Source of the DNA: an uncultured Spirochaetota bacterium
GTDB taxonomy: Bacteria; Spirochaetota; Brevinematia; Brevinematales; JAOACQ01
NCBI GenBank assembly: GCA_963835575.1
Contig: CAWIGG010000004.1
Span: 672,001-736,000 of the forward strand
Direction: 5' to 3'
Length of the DNA: 64,000 bases
How positions within the stretch are numbered: position 1 is the first letter of the stretch; every line of letters begins with the position of its first letter. A program made the translations under genes and the position numbers. The notes under the pieces were generated by a model. The model was not told where the DNA came from. It searched no databases and saw nothing but the letters and a program-made list of their open reading frames with translations. Of this stretch, positions 20,864 through 58,219 are shown piece after piece.

Positions 20864-22508
20864 CCCGGATTATTCACCTGAAAAAAAGTATAAAAAAAGC
20901 CGCGTAACTTTACTCTTTATGATATAATTAATTGCGACCTAAAAATACCCCAAAGAGGAGATACGCGGTGAAAACAGTATGTCATAAACAAGAAGAAAAA
21001 TCAAGCGGTTTTGCCTTTTTAGGCAAGACTATTGAGATGGACTGGAACGGCGGCGACATATCCACTGACGGCGGGCTGTTTCTGGTATCCGGGCTCTTAA
21101 AAAAGACCGGAATTATCAATAGAATATCCGGTTGTATTGAGGATTGCAGGGACCAGGACCGGATAATTCATGAAATGAGTGAATTGATCGGACAACGGGT
21201 CAGCCAAATGATCATGGGGTATGAAGACACCAACGACGCGGGAGTATTACGGTATGACCCGATGTTTAAATTCGCGGCAGGGCGTTTACCTGAAAGCGGA
21301 GATACCCTGTCCAGCCAGCCGACGCTGTCCAGGCTTGAGAACAGCATAAACCTTCGGGATATAACGAAGCTTGATTTCTGTATGACGGACTGGTACATTG
21401 ACAGCTTGATAGAGCGTAAAGCGGAAAGTGTTGTTCTTGACATAGACGGCACGGATGATCCGACGCATGGTAAACAGGAAGGAAGCCTGTTCAACGGTTT
21501 TTATGAACAAACGATGTACTCACCGCTGATTGTTTGTGACGGAGATACCGGAGACCTTGCGGCGATTAAACTGCGGCAGGGAAACGCGGGTCCGGCAAAG
21601 GACGCGCTTGCTATGATCAGGAGAATTGTTTTGGCAATAAGGAGGCGACAACCGGAGATCCGGATAATCCTGCGAGGTGACGCCGGATTTGAAAACCCGA
21701 AGATATACGAATATTGCGAACAAAATGATCTCCATTATATTCTGGGAATAAAGGGTTACCGGAGATTGGAGAAGAGGACAAGAAAGCTATCCCGCAGGGC
21801 AAAGACATATTTTCAAAAAAGCGGGAAAGAAAAGACGCTTCATACGAATTTCAAATACCGTGCACAAAGCTGGGAAAAAGAACGAATGATTATCGCCCGG
21901 ATACGCTGCAATGAATTGGGACAGGACACCCGTTATCTGATAACCAATTGGAAATTTTCAAAGGCAAGGTATGCATACAGATTCTATGCGAAGCGTGGAG
22001 ATATGGAAAACCGGATCAAGGAACTGAAAAAGGATATGAATCTTGACCGTTTGAGCTGCCATCGATATATGGCAAATTATTTCCGGCTGATTCTTGCGGG
22101 TTTTGCCTATCAATGCATGCAGCGCTTAAGGAAGGGATTGAAAGGTACAGAATATGAGAAAGCGCAAGCCGACACTATACGGTTAAAAATTCTGAAAGTT
22201 GCTGTACAGGTAAAAGAAACAGTCCGGAGAGTATGGCTGCATTTTTGCTCAAGTTTCACTGAAAAAGCGGTATTTCAAAGGCTCTCGGACAGCTTTGCGT
22301 AATGAAAGCCTTTCTGGATGTTTTTGACTCCGCTTAAAGAAGGGGGAAACTGCGCCCTTGTAACTGCAAAAAACAGATTTTTGAAAAGTTAGAAAGGATT
22401 GGACGGAAAAACGGAAGGTTAACTGACAAATTTATGCGGCCGCTTGAACAGCCGGGCAGTTTTTTATAGAAAATACACCCTCTGTGGGGGTGAGATGAAT
22501 AATGCGGG
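20864..22508 (+). mobile_element. IS1380-family insertion sequence, copy 1 (1645 bp)
   Basis: IRs CCCGGATTATTCACCT / AGATGAATAATGCGGG. 5-bp target duplication CTTTG at 20859-20863 and 22509-22513. Confidence 0.95.
20968..22302 (+). CDS. IS1380-family transposase
   Basis: GGDISTDGG, SQPTLSRLEN, LDIDGTDDPTHGKQE, RGDAGF and RGDMENRIKE. GTG start after GAGGAG. Confidence 0.95.
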   Translation: MKTVCHKQEEKSSGFAFLGKTIEMDWNGGDISTDGGLFLVSGLLKKTGIINRISGCIEDCRDQDRIIHEMSELIGQRVSQMIMGYEDTNDAGVLRYDPMFKFAAGRLPESGDTLSSQPTLSRLENSINLRDITKLDFCMTDWYIDSLIERKAESVVLDIDGTDDPTHGKQEGSLFNGFYEQTMYSPLIVCDGDTGDLAAIKLRQGNAGPAKDALAMIRRIVLAIRRRQPEIRIILRGDAGFENPKIYEYCEQNDLHYILGIKGYRRLEKRTRKLSRRAKTYFQKSGKEKTLHTNFKYRAQSWEKERMIIARIRCNELGQDTRYLITNWKFSKARYAYRFYAKRGDMENRIKELKKDMNLDRLSCHRYMANYFRLILAGFAYQCMQRLRKGLKGTEYEKAQADTIRLKILKVAVQVKETVRRVWLHFCSSFTEKAVFQRLSDSFA

Positions 22509-28454: not shown

Positions 28455-28470
28455 ATTCTGCAATATATCT

Positions 28471-28585
28471 TCCGCCAAGCCACGCGAATGCACGCTAATA
28501 ATGTTTCATTATTATTTCCATCACGTTCAGTGTAAATTAAGAAAGCTTTTAGACAAATTCGCGTCGATTAGCGTGTCTTAGCGGA
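28471..28585. repeat. Paired 10-bp-period triplet-arm element (ACGCGAAT type), no cargo
   Basis: Left arm TCCGCCAAGCCACGCGAATGCACGCTAAT (28471-28499); inverted right arm ATTCGCGTCGATTAGCGTGTCTTAGCGGA (28557-28585); 23/29 complementary. Confidence 0.8.
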
Positions 28586-35638: not shown

Positions 35639-35665
35639 CACCGCAAAGGCGCAGAGTTCGCAGAG
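35639..35665 (+). repeat. Triplet arm (CGCAAAG/CGCAGAG type)
   Basis: CACCGCAAAGGCGCAGAGTTCGCAGAG; only a decayed partner at ~35678-35706. Confidence 0.6.
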
Positions 35666-35753
35666 ATTAATATTTTATTTGCTGTTGTTGCAGTGTAGCT
35701 GTTGATTACAGAAATGAATATATTGAATATTAAAATAAGTGGAGATGATTATT

Positions 35754-38381
35754 ATGAAGTCTTCTGAGATACGGAAAGCCTTTCTTGATTTTTTTAAAAG
35801 CAAAGGCCATACGATAGTCAAAAGCGCGCCGCTTGTGCCGGACAATGACCCGACGCTGCTATTTACAAATGCCGGGATGAACCAGTTCAAGGATATATTC
35901 CTCGGCACCGGCAAAAGGGATTATGTCCGCGCCGCTGATACTCAAAAGTGCATGCGCGTTTCAGGCAAGCATAATGACCTGGAAGACGTCGGCAAGGATA
36001 CCTATCATCATACCTTTTTCGAGATGCTGGGAAACTGGTCTTTCGGCGATTATTATAAAAAAGAAGCCATCTCCTGGGCATGGGAACTCCTGACCAAGGT
36101 CTGGAAGCTTCCCAGGGACAAGCTTTTCGCGACGGTGCATCATACCGATGATGAAGCCTTCGGTATATGGAGCGATGTTACAGACATAGCAAAAGACCAC
36201 ATCCTTAAATTCGGGGATAAAGACAATTTCTGGGAAATGGGCGCGACAGGACCATGCGGCCCATGTTCTGAGATACATATCGACAGGGGTGAAGCGGCCT
36301 GCGATAAAAAGCATATCAAGGGGCATAAGTGCTCTGTGAATGCCGGCTGCGCGCGGTATATCGAACTCTGGAACCTGGTTTTTATCCAGTATAACCGCAA
36401 TGAAGATACCACTCTTGAAGGGCTGCCCAATAAGCATGTGGATACCGGAATGGGTTATGAAAGGATCGTTTCGGTAGTCCAGGAAAAGTTGTCCAATTAT
36501 GAAACCGATCTGTTTATGCCTCTGATCAAAAAAGTGGAGGAAATGAGCGGCCGGAAATATGAAGAAAAAACAGGAATGCCCATGCGCGTCATCGCGGACC
36601 ACATCCGCGCATTGACATTTTCAATGGCTGATGGGGTTATGCCCTCCAATGAGGGACGCGGCTATGTGGTCCGTAAAATCCTCCGCAGGGCAATACGCTA
36701 CGGCAAGAAGCTCAATTTTACGGAACCGTTTTTAAACCAGCTTGTCGATACGGTCGTGTCCGTAATGGGGGACGCCTTTCCCGAACTTAAGGACCGGGCC
36801 AAGATGGTCAAATCGCTGATTTATTCTGAGGAAGAATCTTTTTTAAAAACGGTAAACAGGGGACTGGATAAATTGAACGAGATGGTGGAAGCGGCCAAAA
36901 AAAGTAAAACCGCAAGCATCAGCGGGGATGAGCTTTTTATACTTTACGACTCGCTCGGCCTGCCGCTGGATTTTATCCAGCATGTGGCGGAAGACGAGGC
37001 CCTGGCGCTGGATATGAAAGGCTTTGAGGCATTGATGGAAAAGCAGAAGGAAAGGGCGCGGGCAAGCTGGAAGGGCGAGGCTTTTGATTTCAAGATTATC
37101 GCCGGCGTTGCCAAGCCCACTGAATACACAGGCGAGGAAAATTATGAGGATAAAGGCACAATACAGCTGATCGTCAAAGGAAACACGCTTGTCGAGACTG
37201 CGTCGGAGAATGATGATATCGTTTTGATTTCCGATAAAACTCCCTTCTATCCCGAAAAGGGCGGCCAGGTGGGCGATGCCGGCGTGGCGGAAAAGGGCGA
37301 GGGGCGGATTGTGATACGGAACACAAAGGTTTTTGAAAATACAATCCTTCATTACGGCCAGGTATTGAACGGCGCTTTCAAATCCGGCGATAAAATCCTG
37401 CTCCGTGTGGATAAAGAAAAAAAAGAAGCGACTGCCCGGAACCATACCGCGACGCATATCATCCACAAGGCTTTAAGGAATGTTATAGGCGAGCATGCGG
37501 CGCAGGCCGGTTCACTGGTCGGCCCGGAAAGGCTCCGTTTTGACTTTACGCATTCCAAGGCATTGACAAAAGAAGAAATAGAAAAAATTGAGAATGAAGC
37601 GAACAGGATCGTCGTGCAGAATCTTCCCGTTGTTTTAAAAAAGATGACAAAAGACGAGGCCGTTAAAAGCGGCGCCGTTGCGATTTTTGAGGAAAAATAC
37701 GGCGATATTGTACGGGTTGTCGAAGTGAGCGGCTATTCGAAGGAACTCTGCGGCGGAACGCATGTCAATAGGAGCGGCGATATCGGGCTGATCAAGATCG
37801 CGGCCGAGAACTCCATTTCGGCCGGGACGAGAAGGCTCGAGGCCGTTACTGGATTGAATTCACTGGAGATGTTCAGAAACTATTATTATAAGGTCAAGGA
37901 AGCCGCCTCTTTTTTAAACACGGATGAGTCCAAGCTGATGGAAAGGCTGGAACAGACAAACGAATCTCTGAAGCAGAAAGATAAAAAAATCGATGAGCTG
38001 AAAGCGAAGCTGGCAAAATCCGGCCTGGATGAGCTGATAAAAAAGGCCGAAAAAATCGGCGGCGCTTCCGTCATCATCGCGAAAACGGATATGGACGCCA
38101 ACGCCATGCTTGCCGCGGGCGATGAATTCAAGGCGAAAGACATCGGCGTGATGTTCCTGATTTCTTCTGCCGCGAAAGACAAAGTAGCGATCACGGCCTG
38201 TGTTTCAAAATCCTATATAGGCAAAATAAAAGCGGGCGACATAGCGCGTGAAACGGCCAAAATAGTCGGCGGCGGCGGCGGCGGAAGGCCGGACCTGGCG
38301 CAGGCCGGCGGCAAGGATGCTTCTAAAATAGATGAGGCATTAAAGACGGCAAAAGAGATGATTGAAAAGGCGTTGAAATAA
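35754..38381 (+). CDS. alaS: Alanine--tRNA ligase
   Basis: TLLFTNAGMNQFK, HHTFFEMLGNWSFGDY, DTGMG.ER, NHTATH, ELCGGTH and GGGGGRPDLAQAGG. Confidence 0.98.
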   Translation: MKSSEIRKAFLDFFKSKGHTIVKSAPLVPDNDPTLLFTNAGMNQFKDIFLGTGKRDYVRAADTQKCMRVSGKHNDLEDVGKDTYHHTFFEMLGNWSFGDYYKKEAISWAWELLTKVWKLPRDKLFATVHHTDDEAFGIWSDVTDIAKDHILKFGDKDNFWEMGATGPCGPCSEIHIDRGEAACDKKHIKGHKCSVNAGCARYIELWNLVFIQYNRNEDTTLEGLPNKHVDTGMGYERIVSVVQEKLSNYETDLFMPLIKKVEEMSGRKYEEKTGMPMRVIADHIRALTFSMADGVMPSNEGRGYVVRKILRRAIRYGKKLNFTEPFLNQLVDTVVSVMGDAFPELKDRAKMVKSLIYSEEESFLKTVNRGLDKLNEMVEAAKKSKTASISGDELFILYDSLGLPLDFIQHVAEDEALALDMKGFEALMEKQKERARASWKGEAFDFKIIAGVAKPTEYTGEENYEDKGTIQLIVKGNTLVETASENDDIVLISDKTPFYPEKGGQVGDAGVAEKGEGRIVIRNTKVFENTILHYGQVLNGAFKSGDKILLRVDKEKKEATARNHTATHIIHKALRNVIGEHAAQAGSLVGPERLRFDFTHSKALTKEEIEKIENEANRIVVQNLPVVLKKMTKDEAVKSGAVAIFEEKYGDIVRVVEVSGYSKELCGGTHVNRSGDIGLIKIAAENSISAGTRRLEAVTGLNSLEMFRNYYYKVKEAASFLNTDESKLMERLEQTNESLKQKDKKIDELKAKLAKSGLDELIKKAEKIGGASVIIAKTDMDANAMLAAGDEFKAKDIGVMFLISSAAKDKVAITACVSKSYIGKIKAGDIARETAKIVGGGGGGRPDLAQAGGKDASKIDEALKTAKEMIEKALK

Positions 38382-38382
38382 A

Positions 38383-38864
38383 ACAGGAAGACGGGAAGGC
38401 ACGAAGAACGGGAAAACGACCGGGGATTAACCACGGAAAACACGGAAATGCATGGAAAGGAACCACAGATTTCACAGATTACACAGATTGATTGCCGGCT
38501 ACGCCTGTATAACAAAGAATATGGTAAAAACACCCTTTATAATTTTATTAAAACTTATATTTTGACCCCAATTGAGCAGGATTGGCAGGATTGATCGGGA
38601 TTTTTAGGATTTAGTTTTATAAAAGCCGCTTTTTGATTTTGCTCGTTGCATGACTTAGACGGAGAGGGTTGGCGGGGAAGGGTTTGGGGTGGTTATTTAA
38701 TTTTCAATTCTTTGTTATTAGCAACTTACCTTATCAAAATAGCTTTCCTGTAATGACTAAACACAAAGGGCACGAAGATCACTAAGAACCACCAAGGGTT
38801 GCCCGCGAATTCACGCGAATAAACGCGAATGGGAAAATTAACAAGAAGATGGGAAGGCGGGAAG
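38383..38864 (+). repeat. Stack of seven short-period (8-10 bp) tandem-repeat arms
   Basis: Arms at 38383-38414, 38430-38457 (CACGGAA), 38462-38489 (CACAGATT), 38574-38611 (CAGGATT), 38761-38796 (CACNAAG), 38801-38830 (CGCGAAT) and 38841-38864. Confidence 0.85.
38497..38690 (+). repeat. Left copy of a ~200-bp unit, inverted relative to 42533-42817
   Basis: Anchors GGCTACGCCT (38497), GACCCCAATTG (38564) and TAGGATTTAGT (38605-38615) recur reverse-complemented, in the same order and spacing, at 42808-42817, 42738-42748 and 42695-42705. Confidence 0.8.
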
Positions 38865-38930
38865 AGTAATAAAATGGACTGATGTTGGGAGAATACCATC
38901 TTTGTTCAGATCAATATCTGCATTATTAAC

Positions 38931-39641
38931 TTATAATTTCATACTCCATTTATAATTAGATAGATTTTCGTTGTCATTTGGTTTTCTAAATACAAATAAA
39001 TGTTCATGCATTATTAAATAAAAACCATAATGTATAGCTTTATTTTCCCATCTTTTTGAATGAACACAATTATGCTGTGCTTTTATTATTTCTTCTTTTA
39101 GAATGAACCCAGATTTTAGAAATCTATCGAGTACATAATATGATATTGGAATATAATGCTGTGATTTACGAGTATCTCCAATTAAAACAGAACAATATTT
39201 ATTTGGCTTCAATACTCTAAACAATTCTTTGGCCACCACTTCTATTTCATCACAAAATTTCTTTAAATTTGAAATTGATGATAAATCATATTTATTTTTT
39301 CCATCAGAATACTTTACTATATTTAAATATGGTGGGTGAACAATTATTAAGTCTATAGAATTATCTTTACATTCAATAATATTACGTGCATCTCCAAGAA
39401 TAACTTTTTGATGTGTTTTTGTTTCAAAATTAAAGTTTAATGCTTCATTTGAAATATCAACAGCTTTTTTATTAATATCAATTCCAATTGCATTTCTGTG
39501 AAGTAATTTTGCCTCAATTAAAGTGGTTCCAGAACCAACCATTGGGTCGAGAATTAATTCATTTTCTTTTGAATATTTTAAAATTAAGTTTCTGGCAATT
39601 TGAGGTGCAAAATTACCCCTGTATTTTGGATTATGATTCAA
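38931..39641 (-). CDS. Amino (N4-C/N6-A) DNA methyltransferase, probably 5'-truncated
   Basis: YRGNFAPQI, LDPMVGSGTT (SAM binding) and DLIIVHPPY (catalytic). Only a TTG start with no RBS, and an in-frame TAA three codons upstream. Confidence 0.8.
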   Translation of the reverse strand: MNHNPKYRGNFAPQIARNLILKYSKENELILDPMVGSGTTLIEAKLLHRNAIGIDINKKAVDISNEALNFNFETKTHQKVILGDARNIIECKDNSIDLIIVHPPYLNIVKYSDGKNKYDLSSISNLKKFCDEIEVVAKELFRVLKPNKYCSVLIGDTRKSQHYIPISYYVLDRFLKSGFILKEEIIKAQHNCVHSKRWENKAIHYGFYLIMHEHLFVFRKPNDNENLSNYKWSMKL

Positions 39642-39670
39642 AAATATTTACAATGACTATTTTAAAAGAA

Positions 39671-39892
39671 TTATTTTATATATTCATTAAATAAGATTTC
39701 ATCTGTATAAAATAGCCCAATTAATATCAATACATCTTTTAATATGTTTTCATCTAAACCAATATTTATTAAATATTCTCTGTTAATTGTGCATTGAGAA
39801 GAACCTGCATTTATTGCTATAGAATATGCTTTAAATTTATCAATTCCCATTTTTTTCAATTTTTTAATTAATAAACATCTTTCATCTTTCAA
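39671..39892 (-). CDS. Hypothetical protein
   Basis: 73 aa, translationally coupled (ATGA-type overlap) to the upstream gene. Confidence 0.6.
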   Translation of the reverse strand: MKDERCLLIKKLKKMGIDKFKAYSIAINAGSSQCTINREYLINIGLDENILKDVLILIGLFYTDEILFNEYIK

Positions 39893-40233
39893 AATAATTT
39901 CCTTTTGTTAAATTCTTCAATGGCATTTTTTAAAGAACCACAAGATAATTTTGCAAGTTCTTCTTTTGACATATTAACTAAATTTTCATGAGATTTTTCA
40001 ATCAAAAACTTATAAAAATAATCATCAGTATTTATTGTTTGAAAAGATTTATCTTCATTAGAAATATCAAAACTAGTAGTATTATAATTTTCATAACTCA
40101 AAACAACATCTTCATTCTTATACAATGCTTTTGCTTGTTGAATAGCTTCTTCTGCAGTATTAGTTTCTATATCTAATATTTTTATTAGTTTTTCTTCTAT
40201 TTCTATTTTATATTTTTGCATAAAATTCCCCAT
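39889..40233 (-). CDS. DpnD/PcfM-like protein
   Basis: KYKIEIEEKLIKILDIET.TAEEAI..AKALYKNEDVVL resembles the DpnD/PcfM pattern. Confidence 0.7.
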   Translation of the reverse strand: MGNFMQKYKIEIEEKLIKILDIETNTAEEAIQQAKALYKNEDVVLSYENYNTTSFDISNEDKSFQTINTDDYFYKFLIEKSHENLVNMSKEELAKLSCGSLKNAIEEFNKRKLF

Positions 40234-40263
40234 TTATTATTTTAGAATAAAAACAATGTTTTT

Positions 40264-41001
40264 TTATAATACAACTTCAACGGTCTCTAATTCAAGTAAT
40301 CTTTCATATTGTTTTATCAATGATTCATATTCTAAAAAATTCACACGAGGTTTAATTTCTTTAAAAACGGAATTAGACAACTTTGTTTCGTATTCATTTC
40401 TTCTTCTTTTATCAGCAACAATCAAAAAACGAACAAAGAAATCTTGTAATTCTGAAAATTTTATAAGAGAATTCTGAATATCAGTGGAATGTTCAATTTC
40501 AAAAAAGGAATTTGGCATCTCTCTTTTATTAAACCAAATTACATCAATAGTCGAACTTTTATCAGTAATTCTTTTATATGAAAAAGAAGGAATATCATTT
40601 AAAGTTCTTAATTCTCCAATAGGTGTTTCAATAAACAATTTGTTTTTATCCTGATTTGGTGCAAATGTATTATATCCTTTCATTTTACCCATTGTTAAGA
40701 TAATACCTTGATAATAAGAATGTGTGAATTCCTGTACTTTTTCAGAATCTTGTTTTCCTTCATTTTCCTCATAAATACCTTTACTTTCAAGATTCTTACG
40801 AAATTTAACCAATCCATATAATCCCGGTTTTATTTTGTAAATTTCTTTTCTTGTTTGAACAATTCGTCTTATACTTGCAAAAGGTGTTTTTGTCCCCCAA
40901 TTGCAATCACTAATTTTCATTGTTTCAATATTTATTTGATTGAGTGTAGCGATGCCATTTAATTTCTCAAGTGCTTCAATAACCGCTTCATGTTGCTTCA
41001 T
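40264..41001 (-). CDS. Winged-HTH plus PD-(D/E)XK-like nuclease (putative restriction endonuclease)
   Basis: N-terminal GIATL..I...W.TKTPFASIRRIVQ (wHTH-like); C-terminal IDVIW...FFEIEHSTD nuclease-like motif. Confidence 0.65.
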   Translation of the reverse strand: MKQHEAVIEALEKLNGIATLNQINIETMKISDCNWGTKTPFASIRRIVQTRKEIYKIKPGLYGLVKFRKNLESKGIYEENEGKQDSEKVQEFTHSYYQGIILTMGKMKGYNTFAPNQDKNKLFIETPIGELRTLNDIPSFSYKRITDKSSTIDVIWFNKREMPNSFFEIEHSTDIQNSLIKFSELQDFFVRFLIVADKRRRNEYETKLSNSVFKEIKPRVNFLEYESLIKQYERLLELETVEVVL

Positions 41002-41092
41002 AATTATACCCTGTAAATTCATTTAACATTTGTGTCTTTCCACCAACCCATTTAAGAAATGGTTTTTCGATTATATTTTCTTTACTTAACAT
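40988..41092 (-). pseudogene. N-terminal remnant of a Dam-family DNA adenine methyltransferase
   Basis: RBS AGGAG, then MLSKENIIEKPFLKWVGGKTQMLNEFTGYNYEAT*. KPFLKW.GGK is the Dam N-terminal motif. Below the ORF-track cutoff. Confidence 0.75.
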
Positions 41093-41197
41093 TTATTACT
41101 CCTGTGGACAATAATGATCTTTTACTATACTATTATTATAACAATAATATTTGTTTTTACCAAAAATATTTACTTTTCCTTTTAGTCAATGAATGAA

Positions 41198-42481
41198 GGG
41201 CGGTTTTAAAAACCGTCTAATTTATCAACACTTCCCTGATAATAGAAAATATTTTCAAAATATTTCTGCCAACAGGTTAAAAACTGTTTCTATTACCAAA
41301 ATTCAGCCAAACACGGGCAATATTATCCATATCTTCTGTATTTTAAGCCGCACAAGACGCAATTCGACCTTTTACCACAACATACCGTGCTAAATTATAA
41401 ACCAGATTCATCAGCCCGATTTGGCTCTCTGCCCTTTCTTTTCCTATCGATCGTATTGTACTGCCGTTCATACTATTTTCAACAAAACCAAAAACATGCT
41501 CAACACGAACACGGATGCGGCTCTTTCTTCTATTTTTTTCTTTCTGCTTCTCCGTCAATGGCTTATTTCTGTATCCTTTTTCGTGAATCCGGTTTTTCAT
41601 CTCAAATTTTTCTAATATTCCTGCTACCGTTGGGCCAACATATGCGCTGTCCGCGTAAAACGGCTTCCCTTTGTCTTTCTCATTCAATAGAGGTTCAACT
41701 ACCTGTGAATCGTGAACGCTCGCATCTGTCGTGACATAAGAACGAATAAGTTTTGACTTCACATCAACCTTTGTATGGTTTTTGTATCCGTAATGCCTCT
41801 CTTTATTCTTGGTCATCCAGCGCGCATCCGTGTCTTTATGGGAAAGCTTATGCGTATTATCTTTCCAATCTTCCGGAACCTCGCCTTCTTTTATTTTCTT
41901 GTTTTCTTCGCGGCTGTTCCTCTGCCGGGGAACATCCACAAAACTTGCGTCTACCATAACGCCCGCTTTCCCTATCACACCTTTATTCTCAAGATTCTCA
42001 TCGAATATTTTAAAAAGTTTCTCTATTGCTTTCGCTTTCGTCAGTTTTTCCTTGAATTCCCAGATTTTACTGTAGTCCGGAACTTTGTCCGAAAGTGTTA
42101 TCCCAAGATATCGCTGAACGGATAACCTGTCATTGATCTGAAATTCCGCTTGCTCATCGGAAAGATTGTAATACCTCTGGAATATCAGTATCTTGAACAT
42201 GAAAACATAGTCATAATGTGGCGCTCCACCCGGCGCCTTCTGCTCTTTCAGCGCCAAAATCTCTGTTAACAGCGGCCGGAACATCTCAAAGTCTACAACT
42301 CTGTTAAGCTTATCCAGCGGTGTTTTTACGCCGCTTAGCTTTTCCATCCGCTCCTGATATTCAAACAAGTTACGGTCTTTCCGCTTAATTTTTGTCATAG
42401 CCTTACCTCTGTTTTCTTTGACTATGATTATATGTTTTTATATACTATTTGTATATGATACGTGGGTTTTTCAAACCGCCC
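41198..42481 (-). mobile_element. IS5-family insertion sequence, 1284 bp
   Basis: IRs GGGCGGTTTTAAAAACC / GGTTTTTCAAACCGCCC (16/17). 4-bp target duplication TGAA at 41194-41197 and 42482-42485. Confidence 0.93.
41343..42398 (-). CDS. IS5-family transposase
   Basis: QRYYNLSDEQAEFQINDRLS, VDASFV, DTDARW, YGYKNH, ADSAY and RVRVEHVFG. Confidence 0.94.
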   Translation of the reverse strand: MTKIKRKDRNLFEYQERMEKLSGVKTPLDKLNRVVDFEMFRPLLTEILALKEQKAPGGAPHYDYVFMFKILIFQRYYNLSDEQAEFQINDRLSVQRYLGITLSDKVPDYSKIWEFKEKLTKAKAIEKLFKIFDENLENKGVIGKAGVMVDASFVDVPRQRNSREENKKIKEGEVPEDWKDNTHKLSHKDTDARWMTKNKERHYGYKNHTKVDVKSKLIRSYVTTDASVHDSQVVEPLLNEKDKGKPFYADSAYVGPTVAGILEKFEMKNRIHEKGYRNKPLTEKQKEKNRRKSRIRVRVEHVFGFVENSMNGSTIRSIGKERAESQIGLMNLVYNLARYVVVKGRIASCAA

Positions 42482-42532
42482 TGAAAAGAATATAAGTATA
42501 AGAATTTTGGTTTTTTTACATTTTGATTTAAA

Positions 42533-42817
42533 AATCCTGCTGAATTGGGGTTAAACAACCAGCTTTATTAAAACAAAAAGGAATTCTAAATCAAAATCCC
42601 CTTTCTGCCGGGCGTAGCCCCTTACCCCCCTCCCTCCGAATCCATCTTGCCTAATCAAAGCACCGGATACCAGCAATAAAGTATCTTTAAGAACACTAAA
42701 TCCTACAAATCCGCATAAATCCGTGCAAATCTGTGTGCAATTGGGGTCTATAAATAAGCTTTAATGAAATAAACAAGGGGCCTTAAACTCAAAACCCTTA
42801 TATTACAAGGCGTAGCC
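42533..42817 (-). repeat. Two tandem right-hand copies (one partial, one full) of the ~200-bp unit
   Basis: AATTGGGGT...GGCGTAGCC occurs twice, ending at 42619 and 42817. AATCCTGCTGAATTGGGGT matches the reverse complement of the left unit at 18/19. Confidence 0.78.
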
Positions 42818-42828
42818 ACCCTGTTGAT

Positions 42829-43374
42829 TTACCTTCTATTTCGTCCTATCATAATAACATTTTCGATAATTGTCAGGCCCAGATAAAAAACGCAAAAATA
42901 AGATATTATTATAGAAGCAACCGGATAATAAGAGATCAACAATATCCGGATCAAACAGATGAGTGCGATTGAAATCATGCAAATGAGCCCGGCGGCTTTT
43001 CCGAATTTTGTAAAAACGATCCCTTTTTTCAGGAAGCAGTTCAGCGTGTAAATTGAAAAAGCCATAAAGATAATTATAATTAAAATAAGCGGGACTGTTT
43101 TTTCCAGATAAAAAATTAAAAAAATAGAAAAGACGGCGATAAAATCGGCCGCCAGGTCCAATAAAGCGCCGCTGAAACTTTCAATCTTCCAGATTCTCGC
43201 CAGCATTCCGTCCAGGATATCGGAAATCAATATCGATAAAGCGATAAAAAAAAGTGTCAGATACGCATTATTGAATTCACTGATAATAAAGAACGGCACC
43301 AGCAGAATTCTCAGTCCGGTGAGGCTGTTAACTGTTAATCTATGAACATATTTACTTTCTTTCTTTGCCTTCAT
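42829..43374 (-). CDS. CDP-alcohol phosphatidyltransferase family protein
   Basis: NSLTGLRI and SDILDGMLAR...GALLDLAAD motif. Confidence 0.88.
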   Translation of the reverse strand: MKAKKESKYVHRLTVNSLTGLRILLVPFFIISEFNNAYLTLFFIALSILISDILDGMLARIWKIESFSGALLDLAADFIAVFSIFLIFYLEKTVPLILIIIIFMAFSIYTLNCFLKKGIVFTKFGKAAGLICMISIALICLIRILLISYYPVASIIISYFCVFYLGLTIIENVIMIGRNRR

Positions 43375-46565: not shown

Positions 46566-46689
46566 ATAGCGCAGTGTCGCTCCTTTTGTTTGGATCCTGG
46601 CGGATATTTTATCATAAGACAGTCAATAAAACAAAGAATAGATAAATTTTATTCCTTATCTGTTTGGTCCAAATTATTGTATTGGGTCT

Positions 46690-46955
46690 TCCGCGAAGCC
46701 ACGCGAATTCACGCTAATAATTATACAGGTATACTAGAAAACTAAAATTTATATATATCTCGATACAAGAGTAAAAGCAGGGAGAAAACACTCAGGGAAC
46801 GATTTAAGACTTTTTACACAGTCTGATGGTTTACAGAGATTTAATATTTAAAATTAAATTATAACTCTGTGAGCTCTGTGTGAGAATTTCCAACCTATAA
46901 CTTCCAATTCATTTCTTTTCACCCCGATTTGCGTCCATTCGCGTGCATTAGCGGA
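46690..46955. repeat. Paired 10-bp-period triplet-arm element (ACGCGAAT type) with nested fragments
   Basis: Left arm TCCGCGAAGCCACGCGAATTCACGCTAAT; right arm ATTTGCGTCCATTCGCGTGCATTAGCGGA. Encloses TTTTACACAGTCTG and CTCTGTGAGCTCTGTGTGA. Confidence 0.8.
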
Positions 46956-47020
46956 TTATCCGTAGAGCCATCAGATTTAATTTGGACACAAGCAGAACCT
47001 TATGCTAAAATGACAAAGGT

Positions 47021-56574: not shown

Positions 56575-58219
56575 CCCGCATTATTCATCTCACCCCCACA
56601 GAGGGTGTATTTTCTATAAAAAACTGCCCGGCTGTTCAAGCGGCCGCATAAATTTGTCAGTTAACCTTCCGTTTTTCCGTCCAATCCTTTCTAACTTTTC
56701 AAAAATCTGTTTTTTGCAGTTACAAGGGCGCAGTTTCCCCCTTCTTTAAGCGGAGTCAAAAACATCCAGAAAGGCTTTCATTACGCAAAGCTGTCCGAGA
56801 GCCTTTGAAATACCGCTTTTTCAGTGAAACTTGAGCAAAAATGCAGCCATACTCTCCGGACTGTTTCTTTTACCTGTACAGCAACTTTCAGAATTTTTAA
56901 CCGTATAGTGTCGGCTTGCGCTTTCTCATATTCTGTACCTTTCAATCCCTTCCTTAAGCGCTGCATGCATTGATAGGCAAAACCCGCAAGAATCAGCCGG
57001 AAATAATTTGCCATATATCGATGGCAGCTCAAACGGTCAAGATTCATATCCTTTTTCAGTTCCTTGATCCGGTTTTCCATATCTCCACGCTTCGCATAGA
57101 ATCTGTATGCATACCTTGCCTTTGAAAATTTCCAATTGGTTATCAGATAACGGGTGTCCTGTCCCAATTCATTGCAGCGTATCCGGGCGATAATCATTCG
57201 TTCTTTTTCCCAGCTTTGTGCACGGTATTTGAAATTCGTATGAAGCGTCTTTTCTTTCCCGCTTTTTTGAAAATATGTCTTTGCCCTGCGGGATAGCTTT
57301 CTTGTCCTCTTCTCCAATCTCCGGTAACCCTTTATTCCCAGAATATAATGGAGATCATTTTGTTCGCAATATTCGTATATCTTCGGGTTTTCAAATCCGG
57401 CGTCACCTCGCAGGATTATCCGGATCTCCGGTTGTCGCCTCCTTATTGCCAAAACAATTCTCCTGATCATAGCAAGCGCGTCCTTTGCCGGACCCGCGTT
57501 TCCCTGCCGCAGTTTAATCGCCGCAAGGTCTCCGGTATCTCCGTCACAAACAATCAGCGGTGAGTACATCGTTTGTTCATAAAAACCGTTGAACAGGCTT
57601 CCTTCCTGTTTACCATGCGTCGGATCATCCGTGCCGTCTATGTCAAGAACAACACTTTCCGCTTTACGCTCTATCAAGCTGTCAATGTACCAGTCCGTCA
57701 TACAGAAATCAAGCTTCGTTATATCCCGAAGGTTTATGCTGTTCTCAAGCCTGGACAGCGTCGGCTGGCTGGACAGGGTATCTCCGCTTTCAGGTAAACG
57801 CCCTGCCGCGAATTTAAACATCGGGTCATACCGTAATACTCCCGCGTCGTTGGTGTCTTCATACCCCATGATCATTTGGCTGACCCGTTGTCCGATCAAT
57901 TCACTCATTTCATGAATTATCCGGTCCTGGTCCCTGCAATCCTCAATACAACCGGATATTCTATTGATAATTCCGGTCTTTTTTAAGAGCCCGGATACCA
58001 GAAACAGCCCGCCGTCAGTGGATATGTCGCCGCCGTTCCAGTCCATCTCAATAGTCTTGCCTAAAAAGGCAAAACCGCTTGATTTTTCTTCTTGTTTATG
58101 ACATACTGTTTTCACCGCGTATCTCCTCTTTGGGGTATTTTTAGGTCGCAATTAATTATATCATAAAGAGTAAAGTTACGCGGCTTTTTTTATACTTTTT
58201 TTCAGGTGAATAATCCGGG
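56575..58219 (-). mobile_element. IS1380-family insertion sequence, copy 2 (1645 bp)
   Basis: Reverse complement of copy 1, with its own 5-bp target duplication CTCAA at 56570-56574 and 58220-58224. Confidence 0.95.
56781..58115 (-). CDS. IS1380-family transposase
   Basis: Protein identical to that of copy 1 in the ORF track. Confidence 0.95.
   Translation of the reverse strand: MKTVCHKQEEKSSGFAFLGKTIEMDWNGGDISTDGGLFLVSGLLKKTGIINRISGCIEDCRDQDRIIHEMSELIGQRVSQMIMGYEDTNDAGVLRYDPMFKFAAGRLPESGDTLSSQPTLSRLENSINLRDITKLDFCMTDWYIDSLIERKAESVVLDIDGTDDPTHGKQEGSLFNGFYEQTMYSPLIVCDGDTGDLAAIKLRQGNAGPAKDALAMIRRIVLAIRRRQPEIRIILRGDAGFENPKIYEYCEQNDLHYILGIKGYRRLEKRTRKLSRRAKTYFQKSGKEKTLHTNFKYRAQSWEKERMIIARIRCNELGQDTRYLITNWKFSKARYAYRFYAKRGDMENRIKELKKDMNLDRLSCHRYMANYFRLILAGFAYQCMQRLRKGLKGTEYEKAQADTIRLKILKVAVQVKETVRRVWLHFCSSFTEKAVFQRLSDSFA

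What the first reader, a model, noticed from the sequence alone, without database searches (positions are those of the whole stretch)
38383..38864. Stack of seven different short-period repeat arms immediately after alaS
Seen: within ~480 non-coding bp there are seven co-oriented, purine-rich arms. Each is 3-4 imperfect copies of an 8-10-bp unit with its own core (GGGAAG, CACGGAA, CACAGATT, CAGGATT, CACNAAG, CGCGAAT, GGGAAG). The CGCGAAT arm is the same one that occurs as inverted pairs at 28471 and 46690. Inference: these are left ends of a family of small elements that insert repeatedly into one hotspot, each arm being a helically phased protein-binding array or one strand of an RNA stem. 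This is not a CRISPR array, a REP/BIME or an IS end that I can name. I recall similar arms flanking GxxExxY nuclease genes in other genomes, but no such gene is in this window and I cannot verify it.
Basis: partly seen in the sequence, partly recalled or inferred. Interest (0 to 1): 0.8.

Follow-up and report, generated by a model that had tools for sequence, protein, structure and literature searches.

The report
Ordered repeat stack bordering foreign genes
The seven short repeat arms after alaS form the left edge of a 4.4-kb block of foreign restriction-modification genes that four sister species lack; five of them match the arms around small GxxExxY nuclease genes elsewhere in the genome, and their genome-wide preferred order suggests they are likely built up by recombination as entry points for new genes.

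Summary
The seven arms are real and belong to about 680 arms in six families in this genome. Five of the seven match the arms that frame the genome's GxxExxY nuclease genes. The stack is not a pile of independent insertions: the DNA between the arms is also repeated (42 and 24 copies), and families stack in a preferred order, D-E-F-B-C (101 of 131 precedences; shuffles reach at most 94). Together the two stacks enclose a 25%-GC restriction-modification remnant and an IS5. In 4 of 4 congeners alaS abuts the far flanking gene. Genome-wide, unpaired arms 0.25-5 kb apart face inward 34 times and outward 10 times, and inward-facing pairs enclose AT-rich cargo. Likely mechanism: nuclease-primed recombination between arms, analogous to Neisseria NIME arrays with SsnA; untested.

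The parts
35739..38381 (+). alaS, left host gene; its stop codon is followed within 2 nt by the first arm
   Evidence: TIGR00344 E 5e-286; sequence
38383..38412 (+). Arm 1, family F
   Evidence: 27 of 28 nt identical to the 5' arm of GxxExxY gene L007
38430..38458 (+). Arm 2, family B' (variant of B)
   Evidence: B profile hit; only a weak match to the arm of GxxExxY gene L006
38460..38489 (+). Arm 3, family B
   Evidence: 27 of 29 nt identical to the 3' arm of GxxExxY gene L008
38497..38563 (+). Linker module X (short GC-rich head plus about 60 AT-rich nt), usually 70-72 nt from head to the next C arm
   Evidence: 42 copies, median pairwise identity 65%; spacing 70-72 nt in 23 of 31 measured
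38564..38612 (+). Arm 4, family C
   Evidence: 144 C arms in the genome, 34 paired; no matching GxxExxY flank in this genome; a short C-like facing pair flanks a GxxExxY gene in G168 (L309, read by eye)
38606..38695 (+). Linker module Y and the G-rich module W that follows it
   Evidence: 24 copies of Y; Y-W-X continuity in the alignment
38696..38759 (+). AT-rich linker Z before arm 5
   Evidence: BLAST hits at C2:1613346 and C5:304853; best local score 57 against a shuffle maximum of 40 at C4:802606; the profile search found no second copy
38760..38796 (+). Arm 5, family D
   Evidence: 25 of 29 nt identical to the 5' arm of GxxExxY gene L009
38797..38830 (+). Arm 6, family E (variant outer end fused to arm 5)
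   Evidence: 29 of 34 nt identical to the 5' arm of GxxExxY gene L004; end typing
38840..38865 (+). Arm 7, family F; arms 5-7 recur as one block elsewhere
   Evidence: 21 of 26 nt identical to the L007 arm; 38758-38869 is 84% identical over 112 nt to C2:501304-501408
38931..39647 (-). Cargo: type II DNA methyltransferase frame, apparently lacking its normal N-terminus
   Evidence: PADLOC MTase_II E 2e-64; PF01555; frame
39889..40233 (-). Cargo: DpnD/PcfM-like protein
   Evidence: PF14207 E 2e-7
40264..41022 (-). Cargo: possible restriction endonuclease
   Evidence: weak PADLOC REase_II hit, E 3e-5; no Pfam hit; GC of 38931-41100 is 0.25
41343..42398 (-). IS5-family transposase inside the island
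   Evidence: NF033581 E 7e-80
42532..42850 (-). Facing right stack: W-X-C-Y-W-X-C(truncated), two turns of a unit of about 197 bp; its W module overlaps the last codons of the right host gene
42829..43374 (-). Right host gene, CDP-alcohol phosphatidyltransferase-like; its counterpart abuts alaS in four congeners
   Evidence: 39% identity to the gene abutting alaS in G001
28470..28585 (.). Gene-less inverted pair of E arms (mini-element)
   Evidence: folds as a hairpin, z -3.45
46688..46962 (.). Inverted pair of E arms, 202-nt interior containing a further arm

Best explanation
The stack is the left border of a 4.4-kb foreign-gene island inserted between alaS and a phosphatidyltransferase gene, made of end pieces of GxxExxY nuclease cassettes of several families chained with shared linkers, and it was likely assembled by nuclease-primed recombination between arms. 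Shown: arm identity, facing stacks, empty site in congeners, shared linkers, preferred order, AT-rich cargo. Inferred steps: (1) each GxxExxY nuclease clade recognises its own arm family; (2) a cut or resection at an arm is repaired from another arm-bearing locus or from incoming DNA, copying the donor from one arm to a later arm, so that co-oriented chains grow and shuffle while keeping the ancestral order; (3) exchange at two facing arms swaps the interior, which lets foreign genes enter right behind host stop codons without breaking host genes.
For: Five of seven arms match GxxExxY flanks in the same genome at 81-96%. All 9 GxxExxY genes have arms. Arm label clusters on a quick nuclease tree: 11 changes against a shuffled mean of 29.5, 0 of 200; 69 of 113 loci kept. 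The predicted fold is a minimal PD-(D/E)XK nuclease nearest to Cas4 SSO0001 (E 3e-5, TM 0.55), with lambda exonuclease lower. Linkers X and Y have 42 and 24 copies; transitions X>C 25, C>Y 20, D>E 12, B>X 11, Y>X 9, E>F 7. Order D-E-F-B-C fits 101 of 131 precedences in 50 runs, best-of-all-orders shuffle maximum 94 in 2000. Different parts of the stack have different best donors. 30 of 38 stacks follow a co-oriented gene end. Unpaired clusters 0.25-5 kb apart: 34 inward, 10 outward, 31 co-oriented; interior GC 0.356 for inward (n=43) against 0.42-0.46 for the others. The outermost family is the same on both sides in 13 of 34 islands, expected 6.5, p 0.007. Empty sites in 4 of 4 congeners for this island and for C2:1245835. 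One slot is empty in G003 and filled in G002 by other cargo between two-arm stacks of another family.
Against: No biochemical or near-identical empty/filled evidence: congeners are only about 70% identical, and no empty paralogous site was found within the genome. In this island the outermost left arm (F) has no same-family partner on the right; 21 of 34 islands likewise do not match. Because arms follow stop codons in the sense direction, convergent host genes alone can give inward-facing arms. 16 of the 39 cargo proteins from other islands are ordinary IS transposases, which insert without help. Outer arms are not more decayed than inner ones (z -0.01 against -0.36, p 0.051, the opposite trend). 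Four of eight slots compared were inconclusive, and one held other genes in congeners without clear arms. The C arm and X/Y/W linkers have no cognate nuclease gene in this genome. The ordered chain was not found in 11 other genomes of the family. Kin share labels on the tree, and the D and G profiles overlap.
Confidence: 0.55

Rival explanations
1. Nested MITE-like insertion with later deletion: small non-autonomous cassettes insert just inside older ones, partner arms are lost, and foreign genes and IS elements drift into the resulting neutral AT-rich gap with no help from the arms.
For: At least five complete nested pairs (C-E-e-c, C-G-g-c, E-F-f-e, C-B-b-c, D-E-e-d); 10 cases of a lone co-oriented arm just outside a complete pair against 3 opposite; 54 of 59 E pairs have one 5'-type and one 3'-type end; many cargo genes are IS transposases.
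Against: Independent nesting does not give shared linkers or 66-84% identity across several arms. In the mirrored island C4:995664-997623 both stacks carry 5'-type E ends, and stacked E arms are 17 5'-type, 7 variant, 5 3'-type, 3 unclassified. No target duplication was seen by eye.
Confidence: 0.25
2. The chain is one composite repeat that was amplified in trans by another enzyme (a rolling-circle or other transposase, or a reverse transcriptase) with variable truncation; the GxxExxY protein is a passenger or accessory.
For: Copies begin at different modules; the right stack begins inside module W; the genome has seven RVT_1 genes; an earlier scan note links one arm family to IS91-type elements (e1-8429551).
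Against: No IS91 transposase was found (the control genomes also gave nothing, so this is weak). Linker X shows no adenine-biased mutation. Copies are mosaic rather than colinear.
Confidence: 0.12
3. The arms are host regulatory sites (nucleoid-protein or regulator binding arrays, or 3'-UTR RNA elements), as proposed for similar paired sites in Geobacter metallireducens, and are kept for that function.
For: Position right after stop codons, mostly in the sense direction; paired arms fold; PMC2700814 proposed IHF/HU-type binding for paired tandem-repeat sites (passages read).
Against: Absent at the same sites in congeners; tied to a patchily distributed nuclease gene (11 of 31 genomes); the stack does not fold; no promoter or terminator excess.
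Confidence: 0.08

Closest known systems
Neisseria NIME arrays (dRS3/NTS plus RS elements) with the Ssn nuclease SsnA (PMC1797815, passages read; PMC11893778, abstract and Discussion read)
   Same: A small single-domain nuclease gene flanked by its cognate repeat; hundreds of gene-less copies; mosaic arrays of repeats and linker families next to variable genes; proposed role in recombination with incoming DNA.
   Different: The nuclease here is PD-(D/E)XK (Cas4-like fold), not GIY-YIG. Each arm is a one-sided run of 3-4 short units, not a self-contained hairpin. Six arm families coexist and stack co-oriented in a preferred order. Activity is untested here.
REPIN/RAYT and BIME (PMC3337134, passages read; PMC3116915 and PMC3733652, search listing only)
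   Same: Inverted pairs around a variable spacer, intergenic position, a gene-carrying form and many empty forms, higher-order arrangements.
   Different: No HUH transposase; arms are not palindromic; stacks are co-oriented rather than alternating; facing stacks enclose kilobases of foreign genes.
[quoted passage not shown]
   Same: Sites of three tandem 8-9-nt repeats, paired on opposite strands at variable distance; the reverse complement of the stated consensus resembles the G/B' units here.
   Different: Read there as regulator sites; the passages read make no link to GxxExxY genes, cargo or ordered stacks.
MITEs, MITE-flanked composite elements and minimal mobile elements (recalled; the last also in PMC1797815 passages)
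   Same: Non-autonomous inverted-repeat units, nesting, alternative genes at one conserved slot.
   Different: No target duplication seen, no DDE transposase with matching ends, ends degenerate and multi-family.
Integrons (recalled)
   Same: Functional analogy only: sites that gather defence-type and unknown genes.
   Different: No integrase or attC-type site was seen; the cargo is bracketed by facing stacks and is not a tandem cassette array.

Membership tests
GxxExxY arm cassettes (scan-defined, not a published family) | Arms match those flanking a GxxExxY gene | tested here: met
   5 of 7 arms at 81-96% to flanks in the same genome; arm 2 weak; arm 4 none in this genome
GxxExxY arm cassettes (scan-defined, not a published family) | Inward-facing partner arm of the same family | tested here: inconclusive
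   Only the C arm and the X/Y/W linkers have facing counterparts (42532-42850); F, B, D and E arms here are unpaired
GxxExxY arm cassettes (scan-defined, not a published family) | Presence/absence between relatives | tested here: met
   Empty in G001-G004
Ssn/NTS (SRM) systems | GIY-YIG nuclease | tested here: not met
   TIGR04256 gene with a Cas4-like PD-(D/E)XK fold
Ssn/NTS (SRM) systems | Site-specific ssDNA cleavage at the repeat | not testable with these tools
   needs an assay
REPIN/RAYT, BIME | Palindromic REP unit | tested here: not met
   Arms are tandem units; the stack does not fold
REPIN/RAYT, BIME | Flanked HUH (RAYT) transposase gene | not tested
   RAYT was not searched; the best open frames between close arm pairs were GxxExxY or cargo
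MITE | Target-site duplication | tested here: inconclusive
   None visible in the flanks of paired arms; no close empty site to compare
IS91-type rolling-circle elements | Y2 transposase in the genome | tested here: inconclusive
   No match, but the control genomes gave none either
CRISPR array | Identical repeats with unique spacers of constant length | tested here: not met
   Arms differ and the spacers are themselves repeated; no Rfam hit

The most novel reading that the evidence does not exclude
GxxExxY nucleases and their repeat arms form a recombinase-free gene-capture system. Multi-family arm stacks are composite landing pads, usable by several nuclease specificities, that let a bacterium swap defence and other foreign genes in behind host stop codons, an integron analogue driven by a Cas4-like nuclease.
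Probability: 0.25. Interest if true: 0.85.

Novelty: new variant of a known kind. Interest (0 to 1): 0.6.

Why it matters
GxxExxY (PDDEXK_3) is a widespread protein family listed as of unknown function (PMC3424549, passage read). The arms give it candidate substrates, one per clade, that can be ordered and assayed. The stack adds two things: such arms are reshuffled into ordered composites covering about 1% of this genome (49 kb in 376 loci), and facing stacks mark where foreign, often defence-type genes arrived. If the nuclease drives this, it is a route of gene acquisition apart from integrons and transposases, and a possible source of small sequence-specific nucleases. If not, the stacks are still useful markers of island borders.

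Tried and rejected
Decayed coding sequence: the X-to-C spacing is 70-72 nt with no triplet constraint, and conservation by codon phase is 0.80/0.70/0.80; rejected. Stand-alone structured RNA: z 0.08 and no Rfam hit. Promoter or terminator array: 1 promoter-like site against 1.5 expected, 0 terminators. DGR-like adenine mutagenesis of linkers: not seen. 'Newest arm innermost': not supported. Inverted duplication of one end within an island: left and right X copies do not look closer to each other than to others (read by eye). Within-genome empty sites: none. X-C module in metagenomes: of 80 loci fetched from 120+ pattern matches, one had a weak X hit and one a weak C hit. The chain in 11 family genomes: only three short hits. 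No solved relative by sequence; the wide structural search was not obtained. Literature: 'GxxExxY' gave 3 papers, 2 listed (one passage read, one listing only); PDDEXK_3/PF13366/TIGR04256 gave 3; others (40 of 418 listed) showed no description of these cassettes in titles or abstract starts. Most subscription papers are outside the library, and supplements were not read.

Full report
Observation. The seven arms are present at the stated place, directly after the alaS stop codon. Triple-copy arms of these cores occur up to 82 times in the genome and never in two shuffles. A scan using periodicity alone recovered the same cores as the strongest signal. Profiles built from 432 seed arms gave 753 arm and linker hits; 9 inside long ORFs were dropped. 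That left 679 arms (E 203, B 150, C 144, D 76, F 53, G 53) and 65 linkers in 376 loci; 332 arms are in inward-facing same-family pairs within 1 kb. The family letters are my labels. Gene positions rest on my own ORF calls.

What the arms are. The genome has nine GxxExxY genes (TIGR04256). Each has arms beside it, purine-rich before the gene and reverse-complemented after it, typically between an upstream stop codon and the next gene. Arms 1, 3, 5, 6 and 7 of the stack match these flanks at 27/28, 27/29, 25/29, 29/34 and 21/26 nt. Arm 2 matches weakly and arm 4 (C) not at all; a short C-like pair flanks a GxxExxY gene in another genome of the phylum. In 80 GxxExxY loci from many phyla, profiles trained on this genome found both arms in 26 and at least one in 47. 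On a quick tree of 69 proteins (44 of 113 loci left out: no arm found, no intact frame, or duplicate), arm labels need 11 changes against 29.5 in shuffles; kinship inflates this. E elements are directional: 54 of 59 pairs have one end of each type, and between co-directional genes 27 run with transcription and 9 against. The predicted protein (pLDDT 88.7) is a minimal PD-(D/E)XK fold nearest to Cas4 SSO0001, with Hjc and lambda exonuclease lower. That Cas4 and lambda exonuclease resect DNA ends is recalled.

The stack is a mosaic of shared modules. The DNA between the arms is repeated too: linker X has 42 copies and Y 24, with median pairwise identities of 65% and 70%. X-C-Y-W forms a unit of about 200 bp that can run in tandem. 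Nearly every 20-nt bin of the stack is covered by a hit elsewhere in the genome. The best donors differ by segment: arms 5-7 match C2:501304 (84%, 112 nt), arm 3 to arm 4 match C2:1083161 (69%, 182 nt), and X to W match C4:997275 (69%, 183 nt). Families stack in the order D-E-F-B-C in 101 of 131 precedences; the best of all orders in 2000 shuffles reached 94; without C, 45 of 58 with 3 of 2000 as high. The window's stack reads F-B'-B-X-C-Y-W-Z-D-E-F, two ordered blocks joined at Z. The chain was not found in 11 other genomes of the family, so it expanded in this lineage or the relatives are too distant.

The stack borders an island. A second stack faces it at 42532-42850. Between them lie a methyltransferase frame, a DpnD/PcfM-like gene and a weak restriction-enzyme candidate at 25% GC, and an IS5. 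In all four congeners alaS abuts the gene that here lies at 42829-43374 (BLAST for G001 only; the others judged from translations). Other genera of the family have different neighbours. In G013 and G017 (one genus, another family) a complete GxxExxY cassette follows the alaS stop codon. Genome-wide, 30 of 38 stacks follow a co-oriented gene. Consecutive unpaired clusters 0.25-5 kb apart face inward 34 times, outward 10 times and the same way 31 times; beyond 10 kb inward is 15 and outward 36. Inward interiors have median GC 0.356. The outermost family matches across 13 of 34 islands (expected 6.5) and some family is shared in 22 of 34 (expected 14.7). Of 39 cargo proteins from 20 of the 43 islands, 16 had no Pfam hit at 1e-4. 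Counting those with hits, transposases were the largest group, and the rest included PIN, YafQ, IrrE-like, kinase, methyltransferase and glycoside hydrolase genes. PADLOC gave defence-family hits for 8 of 21 proteins beyond the window's own. Seven more slots were compared with relatives: one empty in 4 of 4; one empty in G003 and filled differently in G001, G002 and G004, in G002 between two-arm stacks of another family; one filled with other genes and no clear arms; four inconclusive.

How it likely works. Nesting explains some stacks. It does not explain shared linkers, a fixed order, or 5'-type ends on both sides of one island. The simplest account of all of these is copying by recombination from arm to arm, primed by the cognate nucleases, with exchange of the interior when two facing arms are used. 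This is inference: no cleavage, binding or strain-level junction has been shown, and no age gradient along stacks was found. Sense-strand insertion after stop codons plus passive arrival of IS elements and foreign genes could give part of the island signal.

Comparison and novelty. It works most like Neisseria NIME arrays with SsnA (PMC1797815 passages; PMC11893778 abstract and Discussion) and like REPIN/RAYT (PMC3337134 passages), but fails their defining enzyme or repeat features. Paired arms of this kind appear to have been catalogued in Geobacter as putative regulator sites (PMC2700814, passages and legends; figure not opened). My searches showed no paper linking GxxExxY genes to such arms; the library is incomplete and supplements were not read. 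The scan had already reported the cassette and cargo bracketing several times; look-ups for the linker sequence and for ordered stacks returned nothing. Verdict: a real feature, a new variant of nuclease-plus-repeat elements, interest 0.6.

Noticed in passing
L010 (G000:C6:693-4013): The genome's single four-helix-bundle gene (TIGR02436) is preceded by about ten tandem copies of a 14-nt unit and followed by related units, a different repeat design from the GxxExxY arms.
   Followed up: no
L005 about 1890-1915; L009 about 1860-1890; many C arms: A second short repeat family, resembling from recall the hairpin repeats near GIY-YIG genes, is often inserted inside arms.
   Followed up: no
window 40988-41092 (-): A 34-codon frame that from recall looks like the start of a Dam-type methyltransferase, overlapping the start of the next cargo gene; not tested.
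   Followed up: no
window 42829-42850 (-): The last codons and stop of the phosphatidyltransferase-like gene overlap repeat module W; congeners end differently. An E arm likewise supplies the stop of the left gene at C2:1245835.
   Followed up: partly
window 35640-35668: A lone G-family arm upstream of alaS.
   Followed up: no
window 20932-22302 (+) and 56781-58151 (-): Two IS1380-family transposase genes with identical scores, in inverted orientation about 35 kb apart.
   Followed up: no
L100 2150-2570 (Desulfobacteraceae contig): Nested and stacked arms of more than one family near a GxxExxY gene in another phylum.
   Followed up: partly
L073 1505-6356 (G002): Island with dGTPase-like fragments and a two-gene IS-like pair between two-arm stacks, at a slot that holds different cargo in G000.
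   Followed up: partly
G000:C2:1434563-1435478: An E arm pair encloses a 132-aa frame that from recall resembles a HEPN-domain protein; not scanned.
   Followed up: no
L313 (G048), L301 (G067): Long tandem runs of arm modules at about 130-nt or shorter spacing beside GxxExxY genes.
   Followed up: no
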